Under the pieces are notes generated by a model that did no database searches, was not told the origin of the DNA, and saw only the letters and a program-made list of their open reading frames with translations. DNA of 32,000 bases from contig NC_006908.1 in NCBI RefSeq assembly GCF_000008365.1, forward strand, positions 720,001 through 752,000, in the 5' to 3' direction. A program made the translations under genes and the position numbers. The first letter of the stretch is position 1, and each line of letters opens with the position of its first letter. Below, piece by piece: positions 9,286-32,000 of the stretch. The stretch is from Mycoplasma mobile 163K. GTDB taxonomy: Bacteria > Bacillota_I > Bacilli_A > Mycoplasmatales > Metamycoplasmataceae.

Positions 9286-9963
9286 TTATTCTTGTTTATT
9301 TATTTTAAAAATTCCTGCTTTTTCAAAAACTTTAAACGATGTTCAAGTTAAAATGTATTCAGGATATGAATTTTTGCCTGATTTAATTAATAAAGTTTCT
9401 TCTATTTCAGATGAATTATTTAAATTTGATGTTATCTTTACATTTTCAGTAGATTCAACTTCAATTTTTTTGTAACTATTATTATTTTCTAAAATAATAG
9501 GAATAGGTAGTGATCCCTTTTTCAAGTTTTCTTCACTATTAAAATTAGAACTATTATTTTGATTTTTAATGTCATTGCTATTCTCTTTTGGAAATTTATT
9601 ATGATCTGAATAATTTAAATTATCTAATAAAATGGAAATTTTTGCACTTGCAATAAATTGGAAAATAAACCCAATTTGGAAAAAGAAACCAAGAATAAGT
9701 CCTAAAAGCAACATTGTTGAAACATCATTAGGAACTGAATCTGAATTTATAACACTCATTATACTCAAAACTAATCAACTAATACTTGTTACTATTGCAA
9801 CAAGAAACAAAATAATTGATAAAATTATTAATCCGGGAATAAAAAAAACAGAAGCTACCAAAAAGATTGCTAATATTAATGAAATAAAGGAAACTATTTC
9901 AAAAATGGCTGCTTTTCTTGCACAAGATCTTATCTTTAATAATTGAGAAATTTTATGATTCAT
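9286..9963 (-). CDS. Membrane protein, paralog 2 of the GFIFQFIA family
   Basis: Track ORFs 9775-9963 and 9343-9768 join across TGA. Read-through of TGA at 9345-9343 extends to TAA at 9288-9286. Contains LLLGLILGFFFQIGFIFQFIA, a low-complexity Asn/Ser linker, and C-terminal ...NSYPEYILTWTSFKVFEKAGIF... Confidence 0.65.
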
Positions 9964-10058
9964 AGTGATATTATAGCAAAATTCTAGAAATATAAATTCT
10001 CATTTTTAAAAATAAAATCACTACTTTAAACTATTAAAATTTAGTTCATTTGATAATA

Positions 10059-10934
10059 TTAATTTTTTAGCCTTTTAATTTCATTTTTCATTTTAATAGA
10101 TGCTATAAATTGAAAAACAAACCCTATCTTAAAAATAATTCCTAGAAATAGTCCTAATCCAAGCATTAATTGTATAAATGATTTATTACTATTTTTAGAT
10201 AACGTTAATCAATTTACAAAAATTCAAATACTAAAAAATAATCAAACTATCGAACTAATAAAAAATAAGGACATAAAAAACATAACAAGAATAAAAGCAC
10301 TATCTAGTGAGCCATTTATGAAAATATTTATTAGTAAAAAAATTGTCGAAAAAATTATAGAAACAATAGAAACAAGTTCAAGAATTACTGTAATAACTGA
10401 AATTTTAAAATTAAATTTGTAAACTTGTAAATTGGAACGAGGCTCAATTTTTTTAATATTAAAAGAAATAAAAATACTTGCTATAAATTGAAAAATAAAA
10501 CCTATCCCAATAAAACCTAAAATTAAACCTAAATTCAACATTAAAACAATTGATGATTTTCTATTTTCAATTATTGTAGAGGAAAAATGAGTTGCTTTTT
10601 TTAAAGCAAGAATACTATATGTGAATCAAAATGGAACACTAAAAAATAAAGAAAATAAAATAATAAATGCTGTATGCCAAAAAGTATAAATAATATGTAT
10701 TAAAAAAAACTCAAGTGAAAACTTAGATGAAAGTGGGTTGAGTGAAGTTGAAAGTGAACTAGAAAGTGAACTAAATACCAAACGAAAGAAAATTCCTAAA
10801 ATAATTGATAGAAAAACAGTTAAACCTAGAATTGATGCTTTAGAAGAAAGGTTAAAAACTTGTTTATATAATTCTAAAGATAATTGATTGTTTATAATCT
10901 TTTTTTGGTCTTCATTTACTTGTAAGTTATTCAT
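10059..10934 (-). CDS. Polytopic membrane protein, paralog 3 (two clear copies plus one possible degenerate copy of the family helix)
   Basis: Track ORFs 10626-10934 and 10242-10541 are in one frame and join across TGA. The frame continues to TAA at 10061-10059. Contains ILGLTVFLSIILGIFFRLVF, MLNLGLILGFIGIGFIFQFIAS and MLGLGLFLGIIFKIGFVFQFIAS. 291 aa. Confidence 0.6.
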
Positions 10935-11039: not shown

Positions 11040-11113
11040 TGGCAGGGGCTACAGGAATCGAACCCGTGCACATGGGTTTGGAATCCATTGTACTACCACT
11101 ATACTAAGCCCCT
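11040..11113 (-). tRNA. trnW: tRNA-Trp (anticodon CCA)
   Basis: Reverse complement is AGGGGCTTAGTATAGTGGTAGTACAATGGATTCCAAACCCATGTGCACGGGTTCGATTCCTGTAGCCCCTGCCA. Acceptor AGGGGCT/AGCCCCT, D arm GTAT-AGTGGTA-GTAC, anticodon loop TTCCAAA, T arm ACGGG-TTCGATT-CCTGT, discriminator G, encoded CCA. 74 nt. Confidence 0.9.
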
Positions 11114-11338: not shown

Positions 11339-12370
11339 ATGCCTTTTCATTTTATGAAGGGACTTATGATTATAAAAGAGAATAATTTCAAAAAATTTTT
11401 TTTGAAATTATCACTTAATGAAAAATATTCTGATTTAGTTTTCACAGAATTAAAAAAATATGAAAATCAAGAATCTGAAAAAACAGCTACTTACAAATTT
11501 AAAATAAGTAAAAAAATCATTTTAATAGAAGGAAAAGAAGATAGAATTCTTCTAAGAACACTGAAATGAATTGACGATATTGTTGATAAAATTCTTCGTG
11601 AATTTAATTTGAGTTTTGGAATCAATATTAATTTTAAAAACAGATTTACTAGCAATGAAAATAATAATTTAATTATTTTTAATTTTTATAGCAATGATTT
11701 GAAAATTGCTTTGGAAGAATTAGATGATCTAATTTTGGATTTAAATATTTCTGAAAAGCAAAATTTAATTTCATTTAGATTTGACTTTGATTCTGTTTTT
11801 CAAGAAAGTAAAAGTATATTAATGGAAACATCTGATGGATTTTTCAACATGAAATCTTTTGAAGTTCCATCGCACAATAAAGAATTTGTAATCAAATGAA
11901 ATGGGGACTTAAAAAAAATAGTTAATGCAAGAATCCACTATAAATGTATGACTTCAGAGGTTTTTGGTTCAATTATGTGTGATTGCAAAGATCAATTGGA
12001 AAGCTTTAATGAATTAATGAAAAAAGAGGGTGGACTTTTACTTTATGCTTATGAAGAAGGAAGAGGATTCGGAATGTTACATAAATTAAATGCTTATTAC
12101 AACACTGAAAAAGAAGGTTTAGATACTGTTGATGCCATGATAAAAGAGACAGGAAAAACAGAAGCAAGGAAATTTGATATGGCAGGAGAAATAATAAGAA
12201 AATTAGGAATTAAAGAAGTCAATTTATATACAAATAATCCAAGAAAAATAATTCCTTTATTAGATAGAAGAATCAAAGTAAATAGGAAAAAACATTGAAC
12301 TGAAACAAAGTCTAAAGAAGCAAAGAAATATACTGAAGATAAAATTAAAAAAATGGAGCATTTAGAATAA
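11339..12370 (+). CDS. Fusion protein: unknown N-terminal domain of about 170-200 aa plus C-terminal GTP cyclohydrolase II (RibA-like) domain
   Basis: Track ORFs 11339-11569, 11609-11899 and 11948-12298 share one frame and join across TGA. Stop TAA at 12368-12370. C-terminal half ...ARIHYKCMTSEVFGSIMCDCKDQL...LLYAYEEGRGFGMLHKLNAY...GLDTVDA...LYTNNPRK matches RibA, including the three Zn-ligand Cys. The start is uncertain (ATG at 11339, 11354 or 11366). Confidence 0.8.
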
Positions 12371-12371
12371 T

Positions 12372-13943
12372 ATGAATGATGAAAAAAAGAAAGGACTCAT
12401 AATTAATTTTTCTAATTATGAATCAGAAAAAATTGATGTTTTAATTGATAAACACAAAGTAGAAAAAAATAATTGAACTCTATTATCTTCTTTTAAAGGA
12501 GAGAAAAAGAGATTCGAAAACAAATTAGAGCATTATTATTTACCTTGAGGGTATCATTCTTCTATTACTTTTAATAATGCTATTTGACTTTATAGAATGA
12601 AATTTAAAGAAAATTTAGCTCATGTTAAAAAAATTATTTTTATTAATGTCCATGAAGAAATTAAAAAATTCCTTGAAGAAACTGAGCAAGAAATAATTGT
12701 TGATGAAACCAAAAAATTTTTGATAAAAATAGAAAAAGAGATAGAAAGTGAAAAATTTTACATCATTATTGAATCAGAAGACAATAAATTGATAAATAAA
12801 ATTATGTCTTATTCTGCAATTTCTCATTTTAATAAAAGTAGGGAAAAATTTTACAACAATTTTATAATTGGTTGGCTTTTTGAGATGAGAAAAATTTTTA
12901 AAAAAACAAATTATTCATTAGCATATGAATATGCTTACAAATTTTTTACAGAAGAGAAAATTAAGAAAAATTTTGAAGAAAAAAGGAAGTTTATTTATTC
13001 AAATCAAAAGAGTAATAAGGATAATTTGAAAAGCATTAATTTAGGCAATGAAGGAAGAATTTATTTAAATTTAAATTTAAATAAATTAACAAAAAAATCT
13101 AATCTTTCTAGCATGAAAAACAAGAAGGATTCCTCTGAAAAACAATTTGCCTATGAAGAAATGATAAATCATGAAAAAGATTTAAAAATTTGTGCTTCAG
13201 ATGATCAAAATTTAAAAAAAAATCTTTCAATTCAATATGAAGATATTGTCTATCCTACTAATACATTAAAGTTTTCAGATGCCATTCACTCTTTAAGAAA
13301 GCAATACAAAGATAAATATTTTATTGATGATAATAAATTGGAAAATTTTGGAAAAATAAACAAAATAGGTCCGATTTGGAAAATAATTTACAATGATTTT
13401 GGTTCATCTTTTTTAAAAATGAAAATTTTTGATGAAACGGAATTCAAAAAAAATTTTTATGGAATAATAAGAGATAATTATTATTTAGTTAAGAATTTTA
13501 GAAATGTAAATTCAAGAGAAATAATAAGATCAATGAGATCTTACATTACAGAAAAGGATTTTGAAGAACTGAAAAAACAGGACCCACAATTCAAATTATT
13601 TTACGATGCTGTGTTTGAAGAATCAAAAAATAATATAATTTATTTATGTCATGAAGAAATTGAATTGGAAAAAATTGCAGAATATCATTCTATTCATATT
13701 TGTGAAAAAAATATTTCTACTTTAAAAATAAGAAGAGAAACTGAATTTAATAATGACAAAGAAGTGCATTACATTTATGATTTCGAAAAAGATTTATCGA
13801 CTAAATGTGATTTTAATAAAGCTGAAGAATTTTTAAAGAAAATTCAGGAAGATACACCCTTAGAAAATTTAGAAAATCATTTTGAAACAAGTGAAAATTT
13901 AGTTAAAGAAAATGAATCAAAAAAATGAATAATCATAAAATAA
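12372..13943 (+). CDS. Hypothetical protein, 523 aa, Lys/Glu/Asn-rich, no recognisable domain
   Basis: ATG at 12372, 1 nt after the upstream stop. In frame with track ORF 12597-13928. The terminal TGA is read through to TAA at 13941-13943. No hydrophobic segments. Confidence 0.7.
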
Positions 13944-14671
13944 TTGGTCTAATAACAACTACAGGGAAAAGGGACTTAACAAAAAGTTTAAACTCAATGA
14001 AACAGCAAACAAAAAAATTACATGATATTTATATTGCTTCTGAAAAGCAAATTAATATAAATGAAAATATTTTGATTAACCCTTTTACAAAAGGTCTTGC
14101 AAATAATACAATGCAAGCATTAATTAGAATAAAAGAAATTTATAAAAATGAACAAATTTACATTGCTACTTTAGATGATGATGATGAATGAGATTTAAAT
14201 TTTATTAAAAATGGAACTAAATTAGTTCAAAAAAATTTTAATTTTATATCAGGATATTTGCAATATAAAAGCAATCATAGAATTTTGGATACATTAGAAT
14301 TTGAGAACACTTTAACATATAATGATTTTTTATATGGTAACCCGGGAGTGGAAGGATCTAATAAAATTTTTTGTCTTGATTTAGCTTTAGAATCTGGCGG
14401 AATGCCTAAAAATATTAAGACGGCAACAGATCGAGCTTTTAATATCAATTTGCTAATGCACCCAGAAGTTAAATTTGGTGTGATTGAGAAAGTAGTTGCT
14501 TATCACTATGTTGATTCAAAAGACCGTCTTACAAATAAAAAAGATAAAAAAGAAGAATTAAGAAAATTTTACAAGCATTTTTGACATTTAATAGATAAAA
14601 ATAAAATTAATGATATTAATAAAAGACATTTAGATTTGCATCAGATTGAAGAGGTGATAAATTGAAAATAG
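13925..14671 (+). CDS. GT-A fold glycosyltransferase (family 2-like)
   Basis: Track ORFs 13925-14191 and 14258-14584 share a frame across TGA. Stop TAG at 14669-14671. N-terminus IIGLITTTGKRDLTKSLNSMKQQT resembles the GT2 ...PTYNR...L.S...QT start. DxD motif ATLDDDDEW. 248 aa. Overlaps the upstream gene by 19 nt. Confidence 0.6.
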
Positions 14672-15687
14672 TTTATGCTTTAACAATTACAAATCAAGAA
14701 AGTGAACAAATTTTATTAAATAATCTTGCTCATTTGAAAAAGATGAATCTTAATTATTTTTTATTAATTAATACAACAAAAGAAGATCTTATAAATAAAT
14801 TTAAGACTAATAAAAATACTTTAATAATCAACAAAGTAAGTGATATGAGAAATTCAAGAGTCACTTTACATCAGGAGGCATTTAAACTTGATGCAGATAT
14901 GTATTGAATTTTAGATAGTGATATTGATTTTACAAATTTGAATGTAGAGGATTTTTTAAAAATTAAAAAATATTCTAAAATATATGATTTTATTTCTTTA
15001 TATTATAAAAAAGATTCTCCTATTCCAGCATTTTATACATTAGCATCTTCTTTAACTGATTTTTATTTTCATAAACAAAACTTAATAGGATTTGAAAAAA
15101 ATTGATTTGATGATAGTGATTTTAATAGTTCAGATTATCAAAAGTATACTTTTATAGAGAATTATAATAATTTAAAAGAAATTTTGTCAGGCAAATCTTA
15201 TGCTAGAGATATTTGAGAATTTACAGACAAAGAAAATAGTAATGATACGACAACAGGAGGAGCAAGTATTTACTTTAATAAAAATATTTTATTAGAAGAA
15301 TTTGAATGAAAAAAATATAAAGGCAAATCTTTAATATGATACGATTCATATCGAACATTTAATCTAAGCAAAAAATATAGATTTTCTAAGGTTCCAATTT
15401 TTGTAAATCATCTACGCCACTTTGGATCAATTCAACTAAGCTGAGAAAGTGTACAAAGATACATTATTGGTTTTAATGAATATATGAGTTTTAAAGATAA
15501 ACAATGAAATAAAGAATCTTTAATTATTCATACATTAGAATTGTATTTTTACATTAAGGGAATGTGAAAAAAAATAACAAAATTAAATCTTAATATAGAT
15601 GAAATAGTAAAAACAGAAATAAATAATTTCATGAATTGTAACATTTACGAAATCATAGAAGAGGTAAGAAAATGAAAATATCAATAG
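14662..15687 (+). CDS. Second putative GT-A glycosyltransferase
   Basis: TTG start at 14662, 4 nt after GAGGTGA. Track ORF 14662-14907 continues across many TGA codons to TAG at 15685-15687. WILDSDIDF (DxD) and ...TTGGASIYFNKNIL... 341 aa. Overlaps both neighbours. Confidence 0.5.
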
Positions 15688-16430
15688 TTGGTTATGGTCA
15701 TGTTGGACAAGCAATGCATAAATTATTCAAAGAAGCAATCATATATGATATACATAAATCTAAATATAATGATATAGAAAAAATTAAAAATAGCGATGTT
15801 GTTTTTGTATGTGTTCCAACACCTATGAAAAAAAATGGATCTTGCGATACATCATTTGTAGAAGATGTAATATCAAAAATTGATTCTAAATTATTTATTA
15901 TTAGATCAACAGTTTGAATTGGATTTACAGATTATGCTTCAGAAAAATACAAAAAAAATATTGTTTTTCAACCTGAATATTATGGGGAAACTACAAACCA
16001 CCCTTTTTCTAATTTGGAAAATCAAAATTGAATAAGTTTTGGTGGTGAACAAAAAAATATTGATAAAGCAATTGAAGTTTATCAAGAAGTTAAAAATTCT
16101 AATGTGAAAATAATTCAAAGTTCAGCAAAGGAAATTGAACTTGCAAAATATATGGAAAATGCGTTTTTAGCCTTAAAAGTTACTTTTGTTAATGAAATGT
16201 ATGATTTAGCTGAAAAAATGAATATTAATTATAATCTTGCAAGAGAAGCTTGAATTAGTGATCCAAGAATTGGTTCTTCTCATACATTTGTTTATAAAAA
16301 TAATAGGGGTTTTGGAGGTAGTTGCCTACCAAAAGATATAGCTTCTTTAATTTATCAAGCAGATGAAAATGGAGAAGATTTAGATTTAATAAAAGCTGTT
16401 GTTCTAAAAAATAAAAAGTATCAAAAATAG
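15672..16430 (+). CDS. UDP-glucose/GDP-mannose dehydrogenase family protein, short form lacking the C-terminal nucleotide-sugar-binding domain
   Basis: MKISIVGYGHVGQAM (Rossmann GxGxxG), central helix ...AKEIELAKYMENAFLALKVTFVNEM..., catalytic-Cys motif GFGGSCLPKDI. The protein ends about 35 aa later at TAG 16428-16430. 252 aa. Confidence 0.8.
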
Positions 16431-17878: not shown

Positions 17879-19249
17879 ATGAAAATGAAAAAAAATACAA
17901 AAATTTTAATTAGTTCTTCAGCAGCAATTTCTGCTTTAGGAATTATTCCTGCTGCGGTTATTGCTTGTGGAACAACTACAGAAACAACTGAAAGCATTAC
18001 ATCAACTTCAATTGTAAATGGTGTTTTAGGAAAAAAATTTGGAGCTGCTAATGATAATGGCCCATTAAGAGCTGAAACACCTCAATTAAGTTTTAAATCT
18101 GTTACTGGAGCAACTTCGTATGCTTTAGTTATTTTAGATAATGAAGCAACAAATGTAATTGGTGTTCCATTTATTCATTGAGCAATTGCTAATATCAAAA
18201 TTAAGGCTGATGCAAATGGGATGATTAACATTCCGGAAAATATTGCTTCAGAAGCAAATGCTGCTGCAAGAGCTCTAATTACTCAAGGAAGAAATTCAAG
18301 TTTTATGAATGCTAATAGTGCAATTCCAGGAGGATTTCAAAGACCAGATTCTGTTGGATATTTTAGTCCGTTTCCTCCTAATGCAGGACATTATTACCAA
18401 ATTTCTGTATTAGCTTTAGATAAAGAAGTTACAGGATTAGCAGAAGGATTTACTTTAGCTGATCTTTATTCAGGAATTCAAACTCAAGGAATAAAAATTG
18501 TAGATAGAAAGTATGGTGATTTTTTCTATAATCAAGTTGTTCAAAGACAAGGAAGTGATTCTTTATTTGAACACCCAGCAAATTCACTTACAACTGCACC
18601 AAGATTATACAGAGGTGTAGTGCCTAATATTGCAAATATTGCTTCAACTTCTGTAACAAATGGAAACTTACAAGCTAACTTTTTCAATGCTAGAACAAAT
18701 GGAGTTAATGCTACTGCTGATACACTTGGACAAAATAGCACTATTCCTAATTTAAGTTGAAATGCTGTAAGTGGAGCAAATTCATATTTAGTTACAATTT
18801 CTAATTACAGTTTTTCTAATATTAATCAAGCTCCATTTACAAATTTTGTTGCTGTTGTTCCAGCTGAAGCCAATACAACAAATAATAAAGTGACTTTACC
18901 GTCTCAATTAGCAAATGCTAATTCAACAAATGGTGTAATTTATGGAAAAAATAGTAGTTCAACTGACAATGTTATTGCAACAGGAGGAGCTTCATTAATT
19001 AATGTTATGTTAAAACAAAATGCTAATTACTTTATGCCTCAAGGGCGTGCTAATTGAATTATTGTGGTTAATGTTTATGCTTTAAAAAGTAATATTACAA
19101 CTGCTAGTGGTACAAATCCAGTTCTTACAAATGGATCTCATTTCTTAAATGAATTTACTACTAGAGCTGCTAATCGTGATGGAATTATAGCTGCTGGAGA
19201 ATTTGTTTTTAACTTACCAGGTAGTGGTACAACAAATGCTACTATTTAA
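17879..19249 (+). CDS. Lipoprotein with two tandem PEBP/YbhB-like domains
   Basis: Signal peptide plus lipobox ...AAVIAC|GTTTE. Track ORFs 17879, 18221 and 19064 share one frame and join across TGA. Domain 1: ...TPQLSFKSVTGATSYALVILDNEA...FIHWAIANI... and ...YFSPFPPNAGHYYQISVLALD, matching the PEBP signature GPxPPxGxHxYxFxxYALD. Domain 2 (NLSWNAVSGANSYLVTI...IIVVNVYAL) is a degenerate repeat. 456 aa. Confidence 0.8.
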
Positions 19250-19376: not shown

Positions 19377-19973
19377 TTAAAATGCTCCAACTCATTCAAA
19401 ATCTCCATTATCTCTTAAATACAATCTTGCATGGAATGTAAATGAATTATCAACACTACTTGGGAATAAATCTTTATTTTCTCATGTTCATTTACCATTA
19501 TTAAAACTAGGCATAGTATCTTTAGTTACAATTTGAGAATAAATATTTGTTAAAGGAGTCTCACCACCTTCAGGAGCATAATATTTTGATAAAGGAATTA
19601 CGATAAATTTAGTTTGTGTTTTATTTATTGGTAATTGAACTACCATTGCATTTCTTGTATCAAAATTTGATCATTGTCAATCTCAAAGTTCATTTTTAGA
19701 ATCTATTGAATGAGGGTATCATTTATTTATTCCATCATCAGTATAAAAATAAGTAATTTCAGAACTTGATTGATTTATAAGATTTATAGCAGTACTAGGG
19801 TGATTTAAAAAAGTATAATAATCAACAGTAGTTACATTTGTATTTTTATTAACAGGACCATTACCATTTTTAAGTAAATTTCTTTTCTTAAAATTTTCAG
19901 CTAATTTTTGATTGAATGATTCTAAAATTTTTTGTTCATCTTCTTTTAATTTAAGATTTATTTCTTTTGCCAT
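19377..19973 (-). CDS. Trp-rich hypothetical protein, WDWQWSNF family, paralog A
   Basis: Track ORF 19719-19973 continues across 7 TGA codons to TAA at 19379-19377. ...DDGINKWYPHSIDSKNELWDWQWSNFDTRNAMVVQLP...PLTNIYSQIV...PSFNNGKWTWEN...FHARLYLRDNGDFEWVGAF. 198 aa. No signal peptide. Confidence 0.7.
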
Positions 19974-20425: not shown

Positions 20426-21960
20426 ATGAAAGTGAAAAAATTCAGAAAAAATTTAATTGATTCTTCAACTGCAATTTCTGCTTTAGGAATTATTCTTGTT
20501 GCAGTTCTTGCCTGTGGAACAAATACAACAACAGTGCCCACAACAACACAATCTACAACCCAAAGAATTAGTTCTACTTCAATTATTAATGGAGTCTTGC
20601 AACCTAAATTTGGAGCTGCTAATGATAATGGGCCTTTAGGCGCTATTACTCCTCAAATAAGTTTTAAAGCTGTTTCTGGAGCAGTATCATATGCTTTAGT
20701 AATTATAGATAATGAAGCAACAAATGTAATTGGGGCTCCATTTGTACATTGAGCTCTAGCAAATATTAAAATTGCTCCTGATGCTAATGGAATGATTAAT
20801 ATTCCAGAAGATTTAGCCGCTCAAGCTAATAGTGCTATTAGAGAATCTTTAACAATCGGAAGAAATTCAGGTCATCGATATTTTAATGATTTTAGCGATT
20901 TTAACGATCCATTTGAAGGAAGGAATTTTTGAAATTCACAAATTCCAAATAATTTTAGACTATTGAATCCTAATAAGTGAAGTAGTTCAGATTTAAGTTT
21001 TGTTAGGACTCAAAGTGGATATTATAGCCCATTTACACCTAATGCAGGACATTATTATCAAATTTCTGTGCTTGCTTTAGATGCAGATGTGCCAGAAATA
21101 CAAGAAGGATTTGCTTTAGGTCATTTATATGAAAGAATAAAAACTTTAAATATTAAAGTTTTAAATAGAATGCATGGTGATTTTTTCTATAATCAGGTTG
21201 TTCCAAAATCAAAAATAAGAGGGACAGGAAGTGAGGAATTTTTCCTTTCATGAGACAATATTATTGATTGATCATTTATGCATCCTGAAAATTCTCCTGT
21301 AACTGCACCGAGATTATATTCAGAAAATATTCAAACAATTTCAAACATTAAAAGTACTTCAGTAGATGCTAATGGTAATTTATTTGGTAAATTTTTAAAC
21401 GATAGAAAAAATGGAGCAAGTGGATATGGTGATTGAATTGTAACAACAAATAGTACAATTCCTAATTTATCTTGAAACTCAATAAATGGAGCAAATTCAT
21501 ATTTAGTTACAATTTCTGAATACCGGAATGTATTTAATCAGGTTTATACTAATTTTGTAGCTGTTGTTCCATCAGCAAAAAATACTGTAAAAGGTGTTGT
21601 TTCTTTACCTTCTCAATTAGCAAATCTTGCTCCTAAAAATGGAATTATTTACGGATTGAATAATAGCACAACAGAAAAAACACTTGGACCAAAGAAAAAG
21701 ATTTTCTTTGAAGTCCTGAATCTCCAATTACAAATCATCAATATTTTATGCCACAAAAACGTATTAATGCAACAATTGTTGTGAATATTTATGCTTTGAA
21801 TAGTAATATCATAAATGCTGTTGGAGATGTTCCTGCAATTACAAATCACACTTCTTTTTTAAGTGAATTTACAACTAGAGCTGCAACTCGCGGAGAAATT
21901 ATTGGTGTTGGGGAATTTGTTTTCAAACTACCTAGTAGTGATGAATTCATTTTTACTTAA
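20426..21960 (+). pseudogene. Paralog of the PEBP-like double-domain lipoprotein with a broken reading frame near its 3' end
   Basis: Lipobox ...AVLAC|GTN. The frame of ORFs 20426 and 21068 runs to TAA at 21812-21814. The conserved C-terminal 70 aa (YFMPQKRINATIVVNIYAL...GEFVFKLP) are in a different frame (track ORF 21748-21960). Confidence 0.6.
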
Positions 21961-22024
21961 TAAAATTGTCTTCTTCAAGATTATCTTCAGTTCTTAAATA
22001 TAATCTTGAACAAGTATTAAAAAT
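21953..22024 (-). pseudogene. 3'-terminal remnant of a WDWQWSNF-family gene
   Basis: Minus-strand translation IFNTCSRLYLRTEDNLEEDNFIK* aligns with the C-terminus of paralog A (SFTFHARLYLRDNGDFEWVGAF*). DNA core TCTTAAATATAATCTTG matches TCTTAAATACAATCTTG at 19413-19429. Bounded upstream by an in-frame TAA. Confidence 0.4.
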
Positions 22025-22109: not shown

Positions 22110-22610
22110 ATGGAGAAAACCGGAAAATTAAAAAATAATAATGACATCAATAATGTTGAATTGAACCCAATAAAAACAGCTGGTAAGCCTGGAAATGCTC
22201 TTGCATTAAAAAATAATACAAATCAATCTATAAATTATTGATATTCTGATAATGGTATAAATAAATGATATTTGCATACAATTCCAGCTAGTTCATCTAC
22301 TTGAGATTGGCAGTGATCAAATTTTTGAACAGGATATGCAATGGTAATTGAAATTCCTCTTAATGATAAAGAATCAAAATATATTGTCCCTGTTTTTGTA
22401 GAGTATAAAAATGAAGTGCAATTATTAAGTGAATTTCCTCTAACAAACATTTACTCTCAAATTGGTGCTAAAGGACAATGTCCTTCATTTAAAAATGAAA
22501 AATGATATTGAGAATATATGTACTTATACCCTGGAAAAATTGATAGTTTTGCTGTATTTCATACAAATCTTAACTTAGAAAAAGATGGAACTTTTTCTTG
22601 AAATAGTTAA
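22110..22610 (+). CDS. Trp-rich hypothetical protein, WDWQWSNF family, paralog B
   Basis: ATG at 22110 after AAGGAG. Hand translation across 9 TGA codons: ...SDNGINKWYLHTIPASSSTWDWQWSNFWTGYAMVIEIP...PLTNIYSQIGAKGQCPSFKNEKWYWEY...FHTNLNLEKDGTFSWNS*. 166 aa. Invisible in the standard-code track. Confidence 0.7.
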
Positions 22611-26134: not shown

Positions 26135-26211
26135 TTTAAATACCTGTTGATATTTTGAGTATAAATAAATTGTAAATGTAAAAAAATTAAAATTAAATAT
26201 TTATTATATTT

Positions 26212-26269
26212 CTTAAAAAATTTAAATAACAAATTAAAATCTTAAAAAATTTAAATAACAAATTAAAAT
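26212..26269. repeat. Perfect tandem duplication, 2 x 29 nt
   Basis: CTTAAAAAATTTAAATAACAAATTAAAAT occurs at 26212-26240 and again at 26241-26269. Confidence 0.9.
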
Positions 26270-26293
26270 CATATAAATTTTAATATTCAATAT

Positions 26294-26327
26294 AAAACCC
26301 ACAACAAGAGTTTTTGTTGTGGGTTTT
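26294..26327. terminator. Strong bidirectional terminator
   Basis: 14-bp stem AAAACCCACAACAA / TTGTTGTGGGTTTT, loop GAGTTT, with A/T runs on both sides. Confidence 0.75.
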
Positions 26328-26364
26328 ATTTAAATTTTTATGACAATTAATGATATCTATTTAT

Positions 26365-27093
26365 CTAGTTTCTACCAGGAAATCCTGTAACTACAATAGT
26401 TTTTTCGAGTATTCTTCCGTTTTTAGAACCTATTAAGACAACACTTAATCTTCCTTCACCAAAATGCACACTACTCTGTACATATCTTAATGAGAATTGA
26501 ACTCCATTTTGAGGATTAGGAGTATTAACAATTTTATCAATACTTCATACATCATTTGATCAAGCTGGAGTTTTTCCAAAATCAGTTATACTTAGACTTG
26601 AAATTGTGTTTAATTCATTTTGAATATCTCTATCTACTGCAATATTAATTTGCTCTTGAATTTCTTCTGGACTAAGAACTCTAAACCCATTTACAATAAT
26701 TGTTTTTTCTTGAGTTAAATCACCAATAGAACCTACAAGAGTTACAACAACAAATCCACTTGTGTCACTACCACTAGCTGTTTCACTAATTTTTATAGAA
26801 AAACTTACACCATTAGAAGAAACTGGCACTTTAATAAAATCTGTAATATTTTGATTATTTACTTGTGAAGGTAAAGTATTTTTTGCAACTTCAAAAATTT
26901 CTAAAGTATTAATTTTTTCAAGTTCATTTCCTAAAATATTTTTTTGTTGCTCAATTGTGATAATAGGATTAATTGGACCAACTGGACCTACTTCTTTAGG
27001 GGTTTTTGTTGCTACAATGCTTACTGGAACTATAATAACTGTGCTTCCTAAAACTGCTGCTGCTGTTCCTAAAAATAAATTTGCTTTTTTCAT
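26365..27093 (-). CDS. Modular surface protein, one-module member (S module plus C-terminal module)
   Basis: ATG at 27093 after AGAAAGTG (the track start at 27105 is a GTG inside the RBS region). N-terminal hydrophobic anchor MKKANLFLGTAAAVLGSTVIIVPVSIVA with no Cys. Pro-rich linker. Module ...NGVSFSIKISETASGSDTSGFVVVTLVGSIGDL...IIVNGFR. Read-through of TGA at 26562 to TAG at 26367-26365 adds ...NGVQFSLRYVQSSVHFGEGRLSVVLIGSKNGRILEKTIVVTGFPGRN. 242 aa. Confidence 0.8.
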
Positions 27094-27129
27094 AATAATG
27101 TACACTTTCTATATAAATAATTATATAAT

Positions 27130-27135
27130 TACTAA
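27130..27135 (-). promoter_or_regulatory. -10 box (TATAAT on minus strand) of the one-module surface gene
   Basis: Minus strand reads ...AAAAATTTTTAGTAATTATATAATTATTTATATAGAAAGTG...ATG. Confidence 0.4.
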
Positions 27136-27334
27136 AAATTTTTGCTTTTAAAATAATGTTTTTAACTATCCTTTAAAAGGATTTTAAAATTTAAGCTTAT
27201 TTATATTGTCTAAATTTTAAAATTTTTATTTGTAATTAAAATAACAATAAAATTATAATTCTTTTATATTTAAATAGTTAAAATATTTATTTTTTTCTTA
27301 TAAATTCACCTTTTAAGATTTGATACACTAAATA

Positions 27335-27368
27335 AAAAATTACAGCAAGAATTTTTGCTGTAATTTTT
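27335..27368 (-). terminator. Terminator of the two-module surface gene
   Basis: AAAAATTACAGCAA / TTGCTGTAATTTTT 14-bp stem, loop GAATTT, 20 nt beyond the stop. Confidence 0.7.
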
Positions 27369-27388
27369 TAAATTAAGATTTTGTGTTT

Positions 27389-28456
27389 TTAAACAGGGAA
27401 TCCTGTAACTACAATAGTTTTACTAATTGTTCTTCCATTTTTAGAACCTGATAAAATAATACTAAATCTTCCTAAACCAAGATGAACACTACCATCTACA
27501 TATTTTATTGAGAATTGAACTCCATTTTTACTTTGCGGAATATTAACAAGGCTTGTAGCGTTTCCTGATAAAACAGCAGTTTGTCAAGCAAGATTATTTG
27601 CAAGAGATGTTTTTTCTAAACTTGAAATTGAGTTTAATTCATTTTGAATATCTCTATCTGCTGCAATATTAATTTGTTCTTGAACTTCTTCTGGGCTAAT
27701 AATTCTAAAACCATTTACAATAATTGTTTTTTCACTAGTTAAATCGCCAATAGAACCTGCAAGAGTTACAACAACAAATCCACTTGTGTCACTACCACTA
27801 GCTGTTTCACTAATTTTTATAGAAAAACTTACACCATTAGAAGAAACTGGCACTTTGATAAAATCTGTAATATTTTGATTATTTACTTGTGAAGGTAAAG
27901 TATTTTTTGCAACTTCAAAAGTTTCCAAAGTATTAATTTTTTCAAGTTCACTTCTTAAAATATTTTTTTGTTGTTCTTTAAGTTGAGCTCTTTCTTGCTC
28001 TGTTTGGAATCCATCAATAGTAATTTCTTTTTGAACAATAACATTTCCAATAGAACTAGTTACAATAATTACTAATTCTCCGGTAACATCATTTGCTCCA
28101 TTTGGTTTTAAAGACACTTCAAAATTTACACCATTCACATTATCAATTTGAATAAAATCTTTAAGATTAGTTTCATTTACTTCAGATGGTAAAGTATTAG
28201 GAATCTTATCTACATTAAGCATGATATTATTAGGTAAATTAGTTGTGCCAACAACTATAATACTTGGAATATTTCCTAATTCTTTTTCTATTTGTTCTTT
28301 AATTTGTTGCTCAATTGGACTAATAGGATTAACTGGATCAACAGGACCTACTTCTTTAGGAGTTGTTTTTGTTGCTGCAATACTAGCTGGAACTATAACA
28401 ACTGTACTAACTAAAGTTGCTGCAGCCCCTGCTAAAAATAAATTTACTTTTTTCAT
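27389..28456 (-). CDS. Modular surface protein, two-module member (E + S + C-terminal module)
   Basis: ATG at 28456 after AGAAGGTG. Anchor MKKVNLFLAGAAATLVSTVVIVPASIAA. E module ...NGVNFEVSLKPNGANDVTGELVIIVTSSIGNVIVQKEITIDGFQTEQERAQL, then the S module. TGA at 27586 is read through to TAA at 27391-27389 (…NGVQFSIKYVDGSVHLGLG…TGFPV). 355 aa. Confidence 0.8.
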
Positions 28457-28478
28457 ATTTAACACCTTCTCTACTATT

Positions 28479-28487
28479 ATTATATCA
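28479..28487 (-). promoter_or_regulatory. Extended -10 (TGATATAAT on minus strand) of the two-module surface gene
   Basis: Plus-strand ATTATATCA at 28479-28487, 23 nt upstream of the ATG at 28456. Confidence 0.45.
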
Positions 28488-28815
28488 TTATTAATAAGAA
28501 CTTTTTTTAATACAAGATTTTTAACAATGTTTTAAAATAGTTTTTAAATTTAGAATCTTTATACTAATAATCAAAATATATTTTTTGAATTAAATTATAA
28601 GAATATTTGCTTTTTGTTAAATTTATTATTTTCTTAAAATAAAATCTAAAAATTTTTATGTAATTAGAGCTACTCACAAAATTTCAATTAGTAATAATCA
28701 AGATATTTCTACTATTAGATTTACATAAAATCTTATTTAATAAGAAAAAATATATTAACTTTTTGAGTAAAAATTAAAAGTATTTTCAAGATCAAAAAAA
28801 TTTGATATGTTCATT

Positions 28816-28849
28816 AAAAAATACAACAATAATTTTTGCTGTATTTTTT
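28816..28849 (-). terminator. Terminator of the three-module surface gene (one mismatch in the stem)
   Basis: AAAAAATACAACA / TGCTGTATTTTTT. Homologous in sequence and position to the 27335-27368 hairpin. Confidence 0.5.
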
Positions 28850-28868
28850 AAATTAAGATTTTATGTTT

Positions 28869-30245
28869 TTAAACAGGAAATCCTGTAATTTCAATAATTT
28901 TACTAATTGTTCTTCCGTTTTTAGAACCTATTAACTCAATTCTGAAATTTCCTAGACCAAAATGAACACTTCCATCTACATATCTCAATGAGAATTGAAC
29001 TCCATTTTTGCTTTGTGGAATATTAACAAGGCTTGTAGCATTTCCTGATAAAACAGCAGTTTGTCAAGCAAGATTATTTGCAAGAGATGTTTTTTCTAAA
29101 CTTGAAATTGAGTTTAATTCATTTTGAATATCTCTATCTGCTGCAATATTAATTTGTTCTTGAACTTCTTCTGGACTAAGAGCTCTAAACCCATTTACAA
29201 TAATTGTTTTTCCTTGATTTAAATCACCAATAGAACCTACAAGAGTTACAACAACAAATCCATTTGTATCGCTACCGCTAGCTGTTTCACTAATTTTTAT
29301 AGAAAAACTTACACCATTAGAAGAAACTGGCACTTTGATAAAATCTGTAATATTTTGATTATTTACTTGTGAAGGTAAAGTATTTTTTGCAACTTCAAAA
29401 ATTTCTAAAGTATTAATTTTTTCAAGTTCACTTCTTAAAATGTTTTTTTGTTGTTCTTTTAATAATTGAGCTCTTTCTTGCTCTGTTTGGAATCCATCAA
29501 TAGTAATTTCTTTTTGAACAATAACATTTCCAATAGAACTAGTTACAATAATTACTAATTCTCCAGTAACATCATTTGCTCCATTTGGTTTTAAAGATAC
29601 TTCAAAATCTACACCATTAGAAGAAACTGGCACTTTGATAAAATCTGTAATATTTTGATTAGTTACTTCTGAAGGTAAAGTGTTTTTTGCAACTTCAAAA
29701 ATTTCTAAAGTATTAATTTTTTCAAGTTCACTTTTTAAAATGTTTTCTTGTTGTTCTTTAAGTAATTGGGCTCTTTCTTGCTCTGTTTGGAATCCATCAA
29801 TAGTAATTTCTTTTTGAACAATAACATTTCCAATAGAACTAGTTACAATAATTACTAATTCTCCGGTAACATCATTTGCTCCATTTGGCTTTAAAGATAC
29901 TTCAAAATCTACACCATTTACATTATTAATTTGAATAAAATCTTTAAGGTTAGTTTCATTTACTTCAGATGGTAAAGTATTAGGAAACTTATCTACATTA
30001 AGTATGATGTTATTAGGTAAATTAGTTGTACCAACAACTATAGTGCTTGGAATATTTTCTAGTTCTTTTTCTATTTGTTCTTTAATTTGTTGTTCAGTTG
30101 GATTAATAGGATTAACAGGCCCAACAGGATTAACAGGTCCTACTTCTTTAGTATTTTGGTTTGCTACAACACTAAGTGGAACTATAACAACTGTACTTGC
30201 TAAAGCTCCTGCTGTTACTCCTAAAAATAAATTTGCTTTTTTCAT
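28869..30245 (-). CDS. Modular surface protein, three-module member (E + E + S + C-terminal module)
   Basis: ATG at 30245 after AGAAGGTG. Track ORF 29064-30245 shows two near-identical E modules then an S module. TGA at 29066 is read through to TAA at 28871-28869 (…NGVQFSLRYVDGSVHFGLGNFRIELIGSKNGRTISKIIEITGFPV). 458 aa. Confidence 0.8.
29311..29918. repeat. Intragenic tandem repeat, period 300 nt, about 2 copies, near-identical
   Basis: 29311-29618 matches 29611-29918 at offset 300 with only scattered substitutions, for example ACACCATTAGAAGAAACTGGCACTTTGATAAAATCTGTAATATTTTGATTA in both copies. Confidence 0.9.
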
Positions 30246-30268
30246 AATATTACACCTTCTCTAATATA

Positions 30269-30277
30269 ATTATAGCA
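30269..30277 (-). promoter_or_regulatory. Extended -10 (TGCTATAAT on minus strand) of the three-module surface gene
   Basis: Plus-strand ATTATAGCA at 30269-30277, 24 nt upstream of the ATG at 30245. Confidence 0.45.
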
Positions 30278-30567: not shown

Positions 30568-32000
30568 ATGAATCTTGAAGAAAAATATGAAAATAAAACA
30601 AAAGAAAAATTTCAAACAAAGAAAATTCAAATAAATGTACATTCTGAGGAAGAATATTTAAAAAAGCAAAAAGAATTTCTTGAAGAATTGGAACTTAATT
30701 GAGAAAAATTTGAAAAAGAGAACAAATTTCAATTTGATTATGACAACAAATATAAAGAAAAAATGAAAGATGAAAAATTAGGTTTTTATGAATTTGAGCT
30801 TAGTTTTAAAAGATCTCCATTGACAATTATTCATGCACCTTGAGGAACCGGAAAAACTTATTTTTTAGATTCTCTTGTAAAAAATTTTGTAGACAAAAAA
30901 TTCGAAAATACAAAAATTGAAAGAATAATTTTTATCGATTTATGAAAATATTCTTATAGTGAATCTATAGATTTAGATATTTCTAAGTCTTTTTACAAAA
31001 ATGCTCCAATGTCTAGAAGAAAATTTAGGCAAAATGCCACAAAAGGGTTAGGATACGTTTCAAAATTCATTAATAATGCCTTGAATATTGTTGAAGCCAC
31101 ACCTGGTATTCCTAAACTAAACGGATTAAGTCAAGTACTAGATTTTAGTAAAATAGGTGATTATTTTTTGAAAGAAAAAGTTGTAAAACTTTTTTCTGTT
31201 GATGAAACAAGAAAATTAGTGATTCTTGACAATATTGAAAGACTAGGAGAAAATATTTGAGAAATATTTAAATTTATTTTTGAATTGCAAAGTTTAGAAA
31301 ATAATATTTATCTATTACCAATGAATAAACAGTTTTTAATACACAAAAAAAATGAAAGTGGTGGAGAATATCAAATTCAAAAATTCATTGATATTTCTCC
31401 TTTTGAATTTAAACAAAACTATTTGGGTATTTTAACAAAATTTTTTCAAAGAGAAGGTAAACATTTTGAACATCTTAAAAATGACTTAAATAAGATATTA
31501 GAAATGGAAATAGAAGGACAAAAATTATCTATTAGAGAATTGGAACAAAATTTAAATTTAAACAAAGATTTATTGTTTAAGCAAGAAAGTAGATATAAAT
31601 TTCTAAAAGCTTTTAACGAAACTATTTGAAATAATTGAAATTGGTTAAAAAAAATAATAAAAGAAGATTTTGAATTCATTTTAAAAAATGAATTGGATTG
31701 AGCAAACAAAGTAGCTACAGTTAAAAATGAATACTTTTTAAATGATTTTTTTGTTTTTAATGATCACAATGATTTTTTTGCAAATTCATTTAATCGTTAT
31801 TGTTTTGCAAATTCAAAAAATAATTTTTACAAAAAATTAGAAAAAGATATTTGTTCGCTTGACAATCTTAGATCTAATAATTTCAATGAAGGGTTCAAAA
31901 AACTAGGAGAAATTTTAAATTCATATTTAGAACTATCAAATGAACAAGAAATTTCTATAAATGATTTTTTAGAAAGTAAATGAAATGAAAATTTTAAATA
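30568..32000 (+). CDS. KAP-like P-loop NTPase, 3'-truncated by the window end
   Basis: ATG at 30568. Track ORFs 31009 and 31285 share its frame across TGA codons. Walker A ...LTIIHAPWGTGKTYFLDSL (KAP-type WGxGKT). Walker B-like ...RKLVILDNIERLGENIW. The rest is Lys/Asn/Glu-rich and helical. Still open at 32000. Confidence 0.6.

What the first reader, a model, noticed from the sequence alone, without database searches (positions are those of the whole stretch)
26365..30245. Three tandem surface-protein genes forming a 1-, 2-, 3-module series
All three minus-strand genes share five elements: a conserved RBS (AGAARGTG), an N-terminal hydrophobic anchor without a lipobox Cys, a Pro-rich (GPVxP) linker, a variable number of modules of about 100 aa, and a related C-terminal module ending TGFP. 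Module content is S, E+S and E+E+S. E is ...NGV(D/N)FEVSLKPNGANDVTGELVIIVTSSIGNVIVQKEITIDGF and S is ...NGVSFSIKISETASGSDTxGFVVVTLxGSIGDL...IIVNGFR. Long stretches are identical between genes; for example 27601-27660 equals 29081-29140 at offset 1480. The terminators and upstream regions are also homologous. This is the signature of cassette duplication plus unequal or homologous recombination generating size-variable surface antigens or adhesins. The module itself (a LPSxV...I.DFI...NGV.F......G.L.V......K.I.I.GF pattern) is not a domain I can name.
Basis: partly seen in the sequence, partly recalled or inferred. Interest (0 to 1): 0.65.

Follow-up and report, generated by a model that had tools for sequence, protein, structure and literature searches.

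The report
Mycoplasma mobile mvspM, mvspN, mvspO genes
These are the already described surface-coat genes mvspM, mvspN and mvspO of the gliding fish pathogen Mycoplasma mobile; they are built from 2, 3 and 4 copies of a known mycoplasma surface-protein domain (Pfam Lipoprotein_17), so the finding is real but ordinary.

Summary
With TGA read as Trp, three minus-strand genes lie at 26365-27093, 27389-28456 and 28869-30245. They encode proteins of 242, 355 and 458 aa. All three share a ribosome-binding site, a Cys-free N-terminal anchor, a Pro-rich stalk and repeated modules of about 100 aa, and long DNA stretches are identical between them.

It occurs 2, 3 and 4 times, because the C-terminal "TGFP" module is also a copy.

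Published coordinates and domain tables identify the genes as mvspM (MMOB6070), mvspN (MMOB6080) and mvspO of Mycoplasma mobile 163K. The window is genome positions 720001-752000. The family ("mobile variable surface proteins"), its Lipoprotein_17 repeats and the idea of length adjustment by repeat number are already published.

The recombination reading is partly supported:
- mvspO carries an exact 300-nt tandem duplication with junctions in the conserved NGV motif.
- mvspM differs from mvspN by a 113-codon indel bounded by EQQ codons.
- Synonymous divergence along the genes is mosaic.
- Five SNPs published for a laboratory strain all change a gene to its paralog's state.

Ongoing size variation remains untested, because no other strain or close relative was found. 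Novelty: already known. Interest is low.

The parts
26365..27093 (-). mvspM (MMOB6070) CDS, 242 aa, code 4. It has a Cys-free signal anchor, a Pro-rich stalk and 2 Lipoprotein_17 domains (S type and C type).
   Evidence: Translation. Pfam PF04200 E=7e-28 with 2 stretches. Published genome coordinates 746365-747093 (-) equal window coordinates plus 720000. Published domain positions 57-139 and 144-239.
27389..28456 (-). mvspN (MMOB6080) CDS, 355 aa. It has 3 Lipoprotein_17 domains (E, S, C).
   Evidence: E=1.5e-44, 3 stretches. Published coordinates 747389-748456 (-). Published domains 70-152, 170-252 and 273-355.
28869..30245 (-). mvspO CDS, 458 aa. It has 4 Lipoprotein_17 domains (E, hybrid S-head/E-tail, S, C).
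   Evidence: E=3e-64, 4 stretches; best stretch 173-254. The published MvspO domains 52-154, 173-254, 273-355 and 376-458 end at residue 458.
29310..29918 (-). 300-nt tandem duplication inside mvspO, 2.0 copies at 96% identity. The unit is out of register with the protein domain: E-tail, then linker helix, then S-head. Copy boundaries fall on the AATGGTGTA (Asn-Gly-Val) motif at 29910-29918, 29610-29618 and 29310-29318.
   Evidence: Tandem Repeats Finder, offset-300 comparison and direct-repeat families D2 and D3.
26944..26952 (-). Junction in mvspM (GAGCAACAA = Glu-Gln-Gln) where the 113-codon E module of mvspN is absent. mvspN has the same motif twice, at 28304-28312 and 27968-27976, flanking the extra segment.
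   Evidence: DNA alignment of the three loci and protein alignments.
27561..27694 (-). 134-nt run identical between mvspN and mvspO (29041-29174). It covers the linker helix before the C-terminal domain and is a candidate recent conversion tract.
   Evidence: There are no differences in 38 codons, while flanking segments have dS 0.16-0.22.
27103..27125 (-). mvspM ribosome-binding site AGAAAGTG (27103-27110) and -10 box TATAAT (27120-27125). There is no TG extension.
28463..28487 (-). mvspN ribosome-binding site AGAAGGTG (28463-28470) and extended -10 box TGATATAAT (28479-28487).
30253..30277 (-). mvspO ribosome-binding site AGAAGGTG (30253-30260) and extended -10 box TGCTATAAT (30269-30277).
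26292..26329 (-). Hairpin terminator downstream of mvspM (17-pair palindrome followed by T/A runs).
   Evidence: inverted repeat I8.
27333..27370 (-). Hairpin terminator downstream of mvspN.
   Evidence: inverted repeat I25.
28816..28843 (-). Weaker hairpin plus T-run downstream of mvspO. It is homologous (74%) to the mvspN terminator region.
   Evidence: Repeat family D8 and the sequence read.
29064..29066 (-). In-frame TGA (Trp394) in mvspO. The equivalent codons are 27584-27586 in mvspN and 26560-26562 and 26545-26547 in mvspM. These codons make a code-11 reading truncate all three genes before the last domain.

Best explanation
The three genes are mvspM, mvspN and mvspO of Mycoplasma mobile 163K. 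They form a tandem paralog cluster within the 'mobile variable surface protein' family.

Each gene has its own -10 box, ribosome-binding site and terminator, so each is probably transcribed on its own. Each encodes a protein with these parts, in order:
- a basic N-terminus and a hydrophobic segment of about 24 residues with no lipobox Cys. I infer this is an uncleaved signal anchor or a signal-peptidase-I-type signal with V/I-x-A at its end;
- a short Pro-rich stalk;
- a chain of 2, 3 or 4 Lipoprotein_17 (PF04200) domains. Each domain is a three-stranded beta-meander preceded by a linker alpha-helix.

The proteins are part of the cell's surface coat, as antigens and spacers of graded length. 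They are not enzymes.

The size series arose by tandem gene duplication followed by in-frame gain or loss of ~100-113-codon segments. These events happened by recombination at short conserved motifs: EQQ codons in the linker helix and NGV codons in the first long strand. The copies continue to exchange short tracts by gene conversion.

Shown here: gene identity, domain content, the junctions and the mosaic divergence. Taken from the literature: surface location and the 'variable' label. Inferred: membrane topology, independent transcription and ongoing conversion.
For: Identity:
- Window coordinates plus 720000 equal the published coordinates of MMOB6070 mvspM and MMOB6080 mvspN.
- Protein lengths and Lipoprotein_17 domain positions match published Table S3 for MvspM, MvspN and MvspO.
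- The source contig is 777,079 bp.
- The nearest relatives in 1.84 billion representative proteins are named Mvsp A, B, C, D, E/F, H, J and L of M. mobile, plus one M. pulmonis 'lipoprotein 17-related variable surface protein'.

Domain:
- PF04200 scores 97-214 bits.
- A profile built from Mvsp domains puts PDB 2KRT and 3JVC/3K63 ('conserved hypothetical membrane lipoprotein') at the top of the list, at E about 0.01.
- AlphaFold2 models show a linker helix followed by three long antiparallel strands per module. pLDDT is 79 for a single module. This agrees with the published description.

Recombination:
- Exact 300-nt tandem duplication with junctions at AATGGTGTA.
- The mvspM/mvspN indel is bounded by GA(G/A)CAACAA.
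- A 134-nt identical run lies within sequence that is otherwise about 93% identical.
- dS between mvspM and mvspN is 0.11 in the S module but 0.26 in the C domain.

Published SNPs:
- Five of the nine SNPs reported in a laboratory MvspI- strain fall in mvspM and mvspN. The chance of at least five of nine landing there is 8e-12.
- All five are codon changes that exist as differences from a paralog at aligned codons. The joint chance given codon type is 2e-4.
- Three of them (AAT>AAC, TTG>TTA, ACT>ATT) are exactly the set of mvspN/mvspO differences between mvspN codons 160 and 219.

Surface role: Mvsps are described as surface proteins responsible for antigenic variation.
Against: - Surface exposure and localisation of MvspM, MvspN and MvspO themselves were not checked in a text I could open. 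The primary papers (Jaffe 2004, Kusumoto 2004, Wu & Miyata 2012) are not held. I recall from Kusumoto 2004 that MvspN and MvspO sit at the cell head, but that rests on memory only.
- The locus tag MMOB6090 for mvspO is inferred from gene order and was not read anywhere.
- The SNP positions in the published table are not given, only the codon changes. The match to paralog states is therefore inferred, and short-read mis-mapping among 93-100% identical paralogs could give the same pattern.
- Foldseek did not recover 2KRT or 3JVC from my models, and the PDB profile hits are marginal.
- Independent transcription rests on consensus motifs only. The promoter scan as a whole is not enriched over shuffles.
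Confidence: 0.93

Rival explanations
1. This is an active, high-frequency size-variation system of the Vlp/Vsa/Vsp kind. Module number would change within clonal lineages by slipped or unequal recombination, giving antigenic size variants on a short time scale.
For: - The family is named 'variable'.
- mvspO holds a perfect-register 300-nt tandem duplication at 96% identity.
- The three genes offer many 50-134-nt identical tracts as substrates for unequal exchange.
- The published SNP pattern suggests that recombination between the copies happens in culture.
Against: - There are only two tandem units, and they already differ at 15 of 300 positions. This does not fit rapid turnover.
- No homopolymer or other simple-sequence tract, and no convincing inverted repeat, flanks the promoters.
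- The proteins have no lipobox, unlike Vlp, Vsa and Vsp.
- The resequenced laboratory strain was reported with SNPs only, though short reads would miss copy-number change.
- No second strain is available.
Confidence: 0.15
2. The proteins are fibrillar adhesins. The Lipoprotein_17 chain would be a stalk presenting the divergent C-terminal domain as a ligand-binding tip, and the graded lengths would tune reach.
For: - Lipoprotein_17 is used as a 'stalk domain' marker in a survey of fibrillar adhesins.
- The same domain occurs in the gliding leg protein Gli349 and in Gli123.
- The distal C domain is the fastest-evolving part between mvspM and mvspN/mvspO, with dN/dS about 1.3 on small counts.
Against: - The C-terminal module is just another Lipoprotein_17 copy, not a distinct adhesive domain.
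- Binding to glass and cells in M. mobile is assigned to Gli349 (title of reference 15 listed).
- An MvspI-deficient mutant glides normally, and an antibody against the abundant relative MvspI does not affect gliding.
- No binding data exist for MvspM, MvspN or MvspO in anything I could read.
Confidence: 0.08
3. One or two of the genes, mvspM especially, are silent donor cassettes. They would serve mainly as sequence reservoirs for gene conversion into an expressed copy, as with the MgPa repeats of M. genitalium or the vlhA pseudogenes of M. synoviae.
For: - Mosaic dS and conversion-like SNPs.
- mvspM lacks the TG extension of the -10 box that mvspN and mvspO have.
Against: - All three are complete ORFs with a start codon, ribosome-binding site, TATAAT box, signal anchor and terminator.
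- The apparent conversions go in both directions, into mvspN and into mvspM.
Confidence: 0.07

Closest known systems
Mvsp family of Mycoplasma mobile 163K (MvspA-MvspP), described with the genome (Jaffe et al. 2004) and by the Miyata laboratory
   Same: The three genes are members M, N and O of this family. Coordinates, lengths and domain maps coincide. The next-closest proteins are the other Mvsps, at 31-39% identity.
   Different: Nothing differs in kind. Within the family, M, N and O form a tight subgroup (77-89% identity to each other) that uses a Cys-free anchor. MvspA, H, J and L have a lipobox (V-A-C). MvspB, C, D, E and F share the Cys-free type.
Pfam PF04200 Lipoprotein_17 ('lipoprotein associated domain'). 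Solved examples are PDB 2KRT and 3JVC/3K63; from memory these are a Ureaplasma parvum lipoprotein fragment.
   Same: All nine modules score as this domain. The predicted fold of helix plus three long strands agrees with what the Gli123 preprint reports for NMR and crystal structures. A profile of Mvsp domains finds 2KRT and 3JVC as its top PDB hits, sharing the LPS...G-T-L...K...V-S-G-F motifs.
   Different: Sequence relation to the solved examples is remote (E about 0.01). Foldseek with my shallow-alignment models did not retrieve them. No function has been assigned to the domain.
Gli123 and Gli349 gliding-machinery proteins of M. mobile
   Same: They contain weaker Lipoprotein_17 repeats. 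The authors proposed that they share an origin with Mvsps and that repeat number adjusts molecular length and flexibility.
   Different: They are far larger (1128 and 3183 aa), with low-scoring repeats (10-30 bits versus 30-70 bits for Mvsps). They are essential for gliding and encoded at a different locus (MMOB1020 and MMOB1030).
Size- and phase-variable lipoproteins of other mycoplasmas: Vlp of M. hyorhinis, Vsa of M. pulmonis, Vsp of M. bovis (from established knowledge)
   Same: They are clustered paralogous surface-protein genes with in-frame repeats and conserved 5' ends. Recombination between repeats changes protein length.
   Different: Those are lipoproteins with short (roughly 12-90 nt), many-copy, near-perfect tandem repeats encoding low-complexity regions. 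They are switched by promoter poly(A) tracts or site-specific inversion. Here the repeats are folded 100-aa domains and at most two units are in tandem. There is no lipobox and no switch element.
Stalk-repeat surface proteins of Gram-positive bacteria (Rib/alpha-like proteins, SasG) (from established knowledge)
   Same: They have chains of near-identical folded domains whose number differs between alleles and sets the reach of the protein. Very high DNA identity between repeats is maintained by recombination.
   Different: The fold is unrelated, anchoring is by sortase, and repeat numbers are much higher.

Membership tests
Pfam PF04200 Lipoprotein_17 | Match to the family HMM at or above the gathering score (22.4 bits) | tested here: met
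   Scores are 97.2, 150.6 and 213.8 bits, with 2, 3 and 4 matched stretches.
Pfam PF04200 Lipoprotein_17 | Domain fold as in the solved members (2KRT, 3JVC) | tested here: inconclusive
   The AlphaFold2 module model (pLDDT 79) shows a helix plus a three-stranded meander. The profile search puts 2KRT and 3JVC at the top at E about 0.01. Foldseek found no significant PDB match.
Mvsp family of Mycoplasma mobile (mvspM, mvspN, mvspO) | Same genomic position and strand as the annotated genes | tested here: met
   mvspM is at 746365-747093 (-) and mvspN at 747389-748456 (-) in Table S4 of the Gli123 preprint. These equal window 26365-27093 and 27389-28456 plus 720000. The mvspO coordinates are not in that table.
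Mvsp family of Mycoplasma mobile (mvspM, mvspN, mvspO) | Protein length and positions of Lipoprotein_17 repeats as published | tested here: met
   MvspM 57-139 and 144-239. MvspN 70-152, 170-252 and 273-355. MvspO 52-154, 173-254, 273-355 and 376-458. My best stretches are 57-138, 170-251 and 173-254, and my protein lengths are 242, 355 and 458 aa.
Mvsp family of Mycoplasma mobile (mvspM, mvspN, mvspO) | Closest homologues are other Mvsps on the same 777,079-bp genome | tested here: met
Mvsp family of Mycoplasma mobile (mvspM, mvspN, mvspO) | Exposure on the cell surface | not testable with these tools
   The literature states this for Mvsps as a group. The papers specific to MvspN and MvspO are not held.
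Bacterial lipoproteins (Lgt/LspA substrates) | Lipobox with an invariant Cys at the end of the signal peptide | tested here: not met
   None of the three proteins contains any Cys.
Vlp/Vsa/Vsp-type phase- and size-variable lipoprotein systems | Lipoprotein signal peptide conserved among paralogs | tested here: not met
   The N-termini are conserved but have no Cys.
Vlp/Vsa/Vsp-type phase- and size-variable lipoprotein systems | Multi-copy, near-perfect short tandem repeats in the coding region | tested here: not met
   The only tandem array is 300 nt x 2.0 copies at 96%. The other modules are diverged types at 31-35% aa identity.
Vlp/Vsa/Vsp-type phase- and size-variable lipoprotein systems | On/off switch: promoter homopolymer or simple-sequence tract, or invertible DNA with a site-specific recombinase | tested here: not met
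   There is no homopolymer tract between the -10 box and upstream sequence. Inverted repeats are AT-rich, low-complexity and at most 86% complementary. No recombinase appeared among the ten window proteins scanned against Pfam, but not all window ORFs were scanned.
Vlp/Vsa/Vsp-type phase- and size-variable lipoprotein systems | Observed length variation between clones or strains | not testable with these tools
   No second strain or close relative was found in genome or metagenome collections.

The most novel reading that the evidence does not exclude
The mvspM-mvspN-mvspO cluster may be undergoing short-tract gene conversion on a laboratory time scale.

The five 'point mutations' reported in mvspM and mvspN of the MvspI-deficient strain would then be two or three conversion events:
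- mvspO donating a tract of 43 to about 180 nt to mvspN, covering codons 165-179;
- mvspN or mvspO donating to mvspM at codon 87.

The authors did not recognise them as conversions. If this is right, paralog exchange is a working mechanism of Mvsp sequence variation, and the same substrates could change module number.
Probability: 0.4. Interest if true: 0.3.

Novelty: already known. Interest (0 to 1): 0.1.

Why it matters
It matters little beyond bookkeeping. The genes, their family, the domain, its predicted fold and the idea that repeat number tunes surface-protein length are all in the literature on M. mobile.

Two small points are new here.

First, the recombination junctions can be read directly. 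Module gain in mvspO happened at the NGV codons inside the domain, which created a hybrid domain. The mvspM/mvspN difference happened at EQQ codons in the linker helix. So new in-frame domain chains can arise from microhomologies of only 9-10 nt.

Second, SNPs published for a laboratory strain look like conversion between these paralogs. If confirmed, that would give the 'variable' in Mvsp a concrete mechanism.

The case also shows that reading a mollicute with code 11 truncates all three genes at an in-frame TGA, just before the last domain.

Tried and rejected
Searches that found nothing:
- Word-indexed homology search with MvspO returned only MvspN. The same search with a module alignment returned nothing.
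- Exact look-up of MvspN's encoding contig: not on record.
- Two scans of species-representative genomes and one scan of metagenome contigs found no relative. No strain or species comparison of module number was therefore possible. The source genome appears to be masked in these collections.
- Single-sequence and 9-module profile searches of PDB sequences found nothing credible. Only a 34-domain Mvsp profile reached 2KRT and 3JVC.
- NCBIfam gave no hit above its cut-offs.

Structure work that led nowhere:
- Foldseek with the full-length MvspN model (pLDDT 66) gave meaningless matches with TM about 0.1.
- Foldseek with the single-module model (pLDDT 79) gave no match better than E=0.14.

Papers not available:
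- Jaffe 2004, Wu & Miyata 2012 and Adan-Kubo 2012 are not held.
- The supplement of the 2018 resequencing paper is not held.

Readings rejected:
- Lipoprotein: there is no Cys.
- Phase-variable promoter: there is no simple-sequence tract or credible invertible repeat.
- The long + strand ORFs that mirror each gene (26369-27151, 27393-28535, 28873-30264) are not genes. That antisense frame stays open because its stops require sense-strand TTA or CTA in phase 2. This occurs only once in mvspO, because these proteins have a single Tyr codon.

Full report
**Observation**

The window has about 24% G+C. Its long-ORF content doubles when TGA is read as Trp (12,749 versus 6,186 codons in ORFs of at least 100 aa). 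It therefore comes from a mollicute that uses genetic code 4.

Under code 11 the three genes appear truncated, at 181, 293 and 393 aa. Under code 4 they run 26365-27093, 27389-28456 and 28869-30245 on the minus strand and encode 242, 355 and 458 aa.

- AGAARGTG lies 6-9 nt before each ATG, with a TATAAT box 22-26 nt upstream of the ATG.
- Each protein starts MKK followed by about 24 hydrophobic residues. None of the three proteins contains any cysteine.
- Each has a GPVxP-type Pro-rich stretch, the quoted E and S modules, and a C-terminal module ending TGFP.
- The identity of 27601-27660 with 29081-29140 is exact. It is part of a 134-nt identical run.
- Repeat families of 160-300 nt at 89-97% identity link the genes.

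**What the module is**

It scores 97, 151 and 214 bits against a cut-off of 22.4, with 2, 3 and 4 matched stretches in the three proteins.

The C-terminal "TGFP" module is a further copy of the same domain. The true series is therefore 2, 3 and 4 domains. My own profile places them as follows:
- 242-aa protein: residues 47-141 and 150-242.
- 355-aa protein: residues 49-154, 160-254 and 263-355.
- 458-aa protein: residues 51-156, 163-256, 263-357 and 366-458.

**Which genes these are**

The only database hit of the largest protein was the middle protein, on a contig of 777,079 bp. I remembered that figure as the genome size of Mycoplasma mobile 163K.

The literature search led to the Miyata laboratory's Gli123 preprint (bioRxiv 10.1101/2022.09.07.507039). 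Its Table S3 lists these Lipoprotein_17 positions:
- MvspM: 57-139 and 144-239.
- MvspN: 70-152, 170-252 and 273-355.
- MvspO: 52-154, 173-254, 273-355 and 376-458.

These match my lengths (242, 355 and 458 aa) and my best Pfam stretches (57-138, 170-251, 173-254).

Its Table S4 gives genome coordinates:
- mvspM = MMOB6070, 746365-747093 (-).
- mvspN = MMOB6080, 747389-748456 (-).

These are my window coordinates plus exactly 720000. The window is therefore M. mobile 163K positions 720001-752000. The third gene is mvspO. I infer the tag MMOB6090 from gene order, and I did not read it anywhere.

An exhaustive HMMER scan of 1.84 billion representative proteins gave independent confirmation. It found only 14 proteins at E ≤ 0.001. 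Apart from MvspM and MvspN themselves, the eight looked up are named as follows:
- variable surface proteins MvspA, B, C, D, E/F, H, J and L of M. mobile;
- one M. pulmonis "lipoprotein 17-related variable surface protein".

**What is already published**

The same preprint makes these statements:
- Mvsps carry up to 16 copies.
[quoted passage not shown] This is consistent with NMR and crystal structures.

Another paper from the group describes Mvsps as surface proteins responsible for antigenic variation. The gene family, the domain, the fold and the length-tuning idea are thus all in print.

From memory only: Kusumoto et al. 2004 raised monoclonal antibodies that recognise MvspN and MvspO and localised them to the cell head. 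I could not open that paper, Jaffe 2004 or Wu & Miyata 2012.

**Structure**

AlphaFold2 on MvspN with the paralogs as a shallow alignment gave mean pLDDT 66. The first 43 residues were disordered. Each module showed a long helix followed by three long antiparallel strands.

A single E module with a nine-module alignment gave pLDDT 79 and pTM 0.73, with the same topology.

Foldseek against the PDB gave nothing significant for either model. Sequence searches of the PDB with one protein or with the nine modules also failed.

A profile of 34 domains from the Mvsp relatives placed 2KRT and 3JVC/3K63 ("conserved hypothetical membrane lipoprotein") at the top, at E about 0.01. The alignment shares the LPS...GTL...K..V.GF motifs. 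I recall these entries as the Ureaplasma parvum Lipoprotein_17 structures. The link is weak but consistent with the preprint's statement.

**How the size series arose**

The junctions are legible in the DNA.

mvspO versus mvspN:
- mvspO carries an exact 300-nt tandem duplication at 29310-29918 (2.0 copies, 96% matches, no indels).
- The unit is out of register with the domain. It runs from the Asn-Gly-Val codons (AATGGTGTA) of one domain to the same motif in the next.
- The second module of MvspO is therefore a hybrid, with an S-type head up to NGV and an E-type tail after it.
- This is what unequal exchange between the NGV motif of an S module and that of an E module in an mvspN-like gene would produce.

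mvspM versus mvspN:
- mvspM lacks a 113-codon segment that in mvspN is bounded on both sides by GA(G/A)CAACAA (Glu-Gln-Gln). mvspM keeps a single copy at 26944-26952.

Both events are in frame and use 9-10 nt of microhomology in conserved motifs.

**Evidence for exchange between the copies**

Divergence along the genes is mosaic:

| Pair | Segment | Result |
|---|---|---|
| mvspN-mvspO | 38 codons before the last domain | no differences |
| mvspN-mvspO | flanking segments | dS 0.16-0.22 |
| mvspM-mvspN, mvspM-mvspO | S module | dS 0.10-0.11 |
| mvspM-mvspN, mvspM-mvspO | C domain | dS 0.26, dN/dS about 1.3 |

All of these rest on small counts.

A second line comes from published data. In the MvspI-deficient laboratory strain, five of nine SNPs lie in mvspM (ATT>ATC) and mvspN (ACT>ATT, TTG>TTA, AAT>AAC, CTT>TTT).
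- The chance of at least five of nine landing in these 1.8 kb of a 777-kb genome is 8e-12.
- Each change corresponds to an existing difference from a paralog at an aligned codon. Given the codon types, the joint chance is about 2e-4.
- mvspN has a single TTG codon (177), and its paralog state is TTA.
- Together with ACT179>ATT and AAT165>AAC, it forms exactly the complete set of mvspN/mvspO differences between codons 160 and 219.
- One conversion tract of 43 to about 180 nt with mvspO as donor would explain all three.
- The mvspM change is the only difference from mvspN and mvspO within 120-160 nt.
- The CTT>TTT change would need a tract under 18 nt and fits less well.

The authors call these changes mutations. 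The table gives no positions, and mis-mapping of short reads among near-identical paralogs is a live alternative. I therefore rate real conversion at about 0.4.

**What is not supported**

- There is no sign of a rapid switch. No homopolymer or other simple-sequence tract lies near the promoters.
- The inverted repeats in the region are AT-rich, low in complexity and at most 86% complementary.
- The two tandem units in mvspO already differ at 15 of 300 positions.
- No other strain or close relative was found in species-representative genomes or metagenome contigs.
- The adhesin idea rests only on the use of Lipoprotein_17 as a "stalk" marker in a fibrillar-adhesin survey and on the faster-evolving distal domain. 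In M. mobile, binding is assigned to Gli349 (reference title). An antibody against the related MvspI does not affect gliding, and an MvspI-deficient mutant glides normally.

**Verdict**

Novelty: already known. Interest: 0.1. The only mildly new items are the explicit junction anatomy and the conversion-like reading of the published SNPs.

Noticed in passing
window 20426-21990 (+), compared with 17879-19249 (+): There are two paralogous lipoprotein genes with a lipobox (A-C-G-T) and a PEBP domain (PF01161). The second changes reading frame near 21690-21710, around an AAAGAAAAAGA stretch. The paralog-like C-terminus ('YFMPQKRINATIVVNIYALNS...') continues in another frame. So it is a frameshifted pseudogene, a sequencing error or a slippage site.
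   Followed up: partly
window 19377-19973 (-) and 22110-22610 (+): Each PEBP-lipoprotein gene has a small paralogous gene next to it (198 and 166 aa). The two share motifs such as 'GINKWY..H.I......WDWQWSNF' and have no Pfam match. This suggests a duplicated two-gene module of unknown function.
   Followed up: no
window 26369-27151, 27393-28535 and 28873-30264 (+): Under code 4, each mvsp gene is mirrored by an antisense ORF as long as the gene itself (260, 380 and 463 codons). These are artefacts. Stops in that frame need sense-strand TTA or CTA in phase 2, i.e. a T/C-ending codon followed by a TAN (Tyr) codon. This occurs only once in mvspO, because the proteins have a single Tyr.
   Followed up: yes
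window 26211-26283: A 29-nt tandem repeat (2.5 copies, 93% matches) lies in the AT-rich spacer just downstream of the mvspM terminator. Its purpose is unknown.
   Followed up: no
window 8531-10934 (-): Three tandem paralogous genes encode multi-pass membrane proteins of 230, 225 and 291 aa. They share the motif 'LLLGL(V/I)(I/L)GFFF(R/Q)IGFIFQFIA'. The one scanned against Pfam gave no match.
   Followed up: no
window 11040-11113 (-): The window contains a tRNA-Trp gene with anticodon CCA, which reads UGG. The mvsp genes encode all their Trp residues with TGA, so a UCA-anticodon tRNA-Trp must lie elsewhere in the genome.
   Followed up: no
window 11339-16430 (+): This is a run of co-oriented genes. 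It includes a GTP cyclohydrolase II domain protein, three proteins with no Pfam hit (523, 248 and 314 aa) and a short (252 aa) UDP-glucose/GDP-mannose dehydrogenase-like protein that lacks the C-terminal domain. It may be a surface-glycan locus.
   Followed up: no
window 27120-27125 compared with 28479-28487 and 30269-30277: mvspN and mvspO have an extended -10 box (TGnTATAAT). mvspM has TTATATAAT, without the TG. This might mean weaker transcription of mvspM.
   Followed up: no
window 30568-32000 (+): The gene upstream of the cluster, divergently oriented, encodes a P-loop NTPase (motif 'APWGTGKTYF', weak AAA_22 hit). It runs off the end of the window.
   Followed up: no
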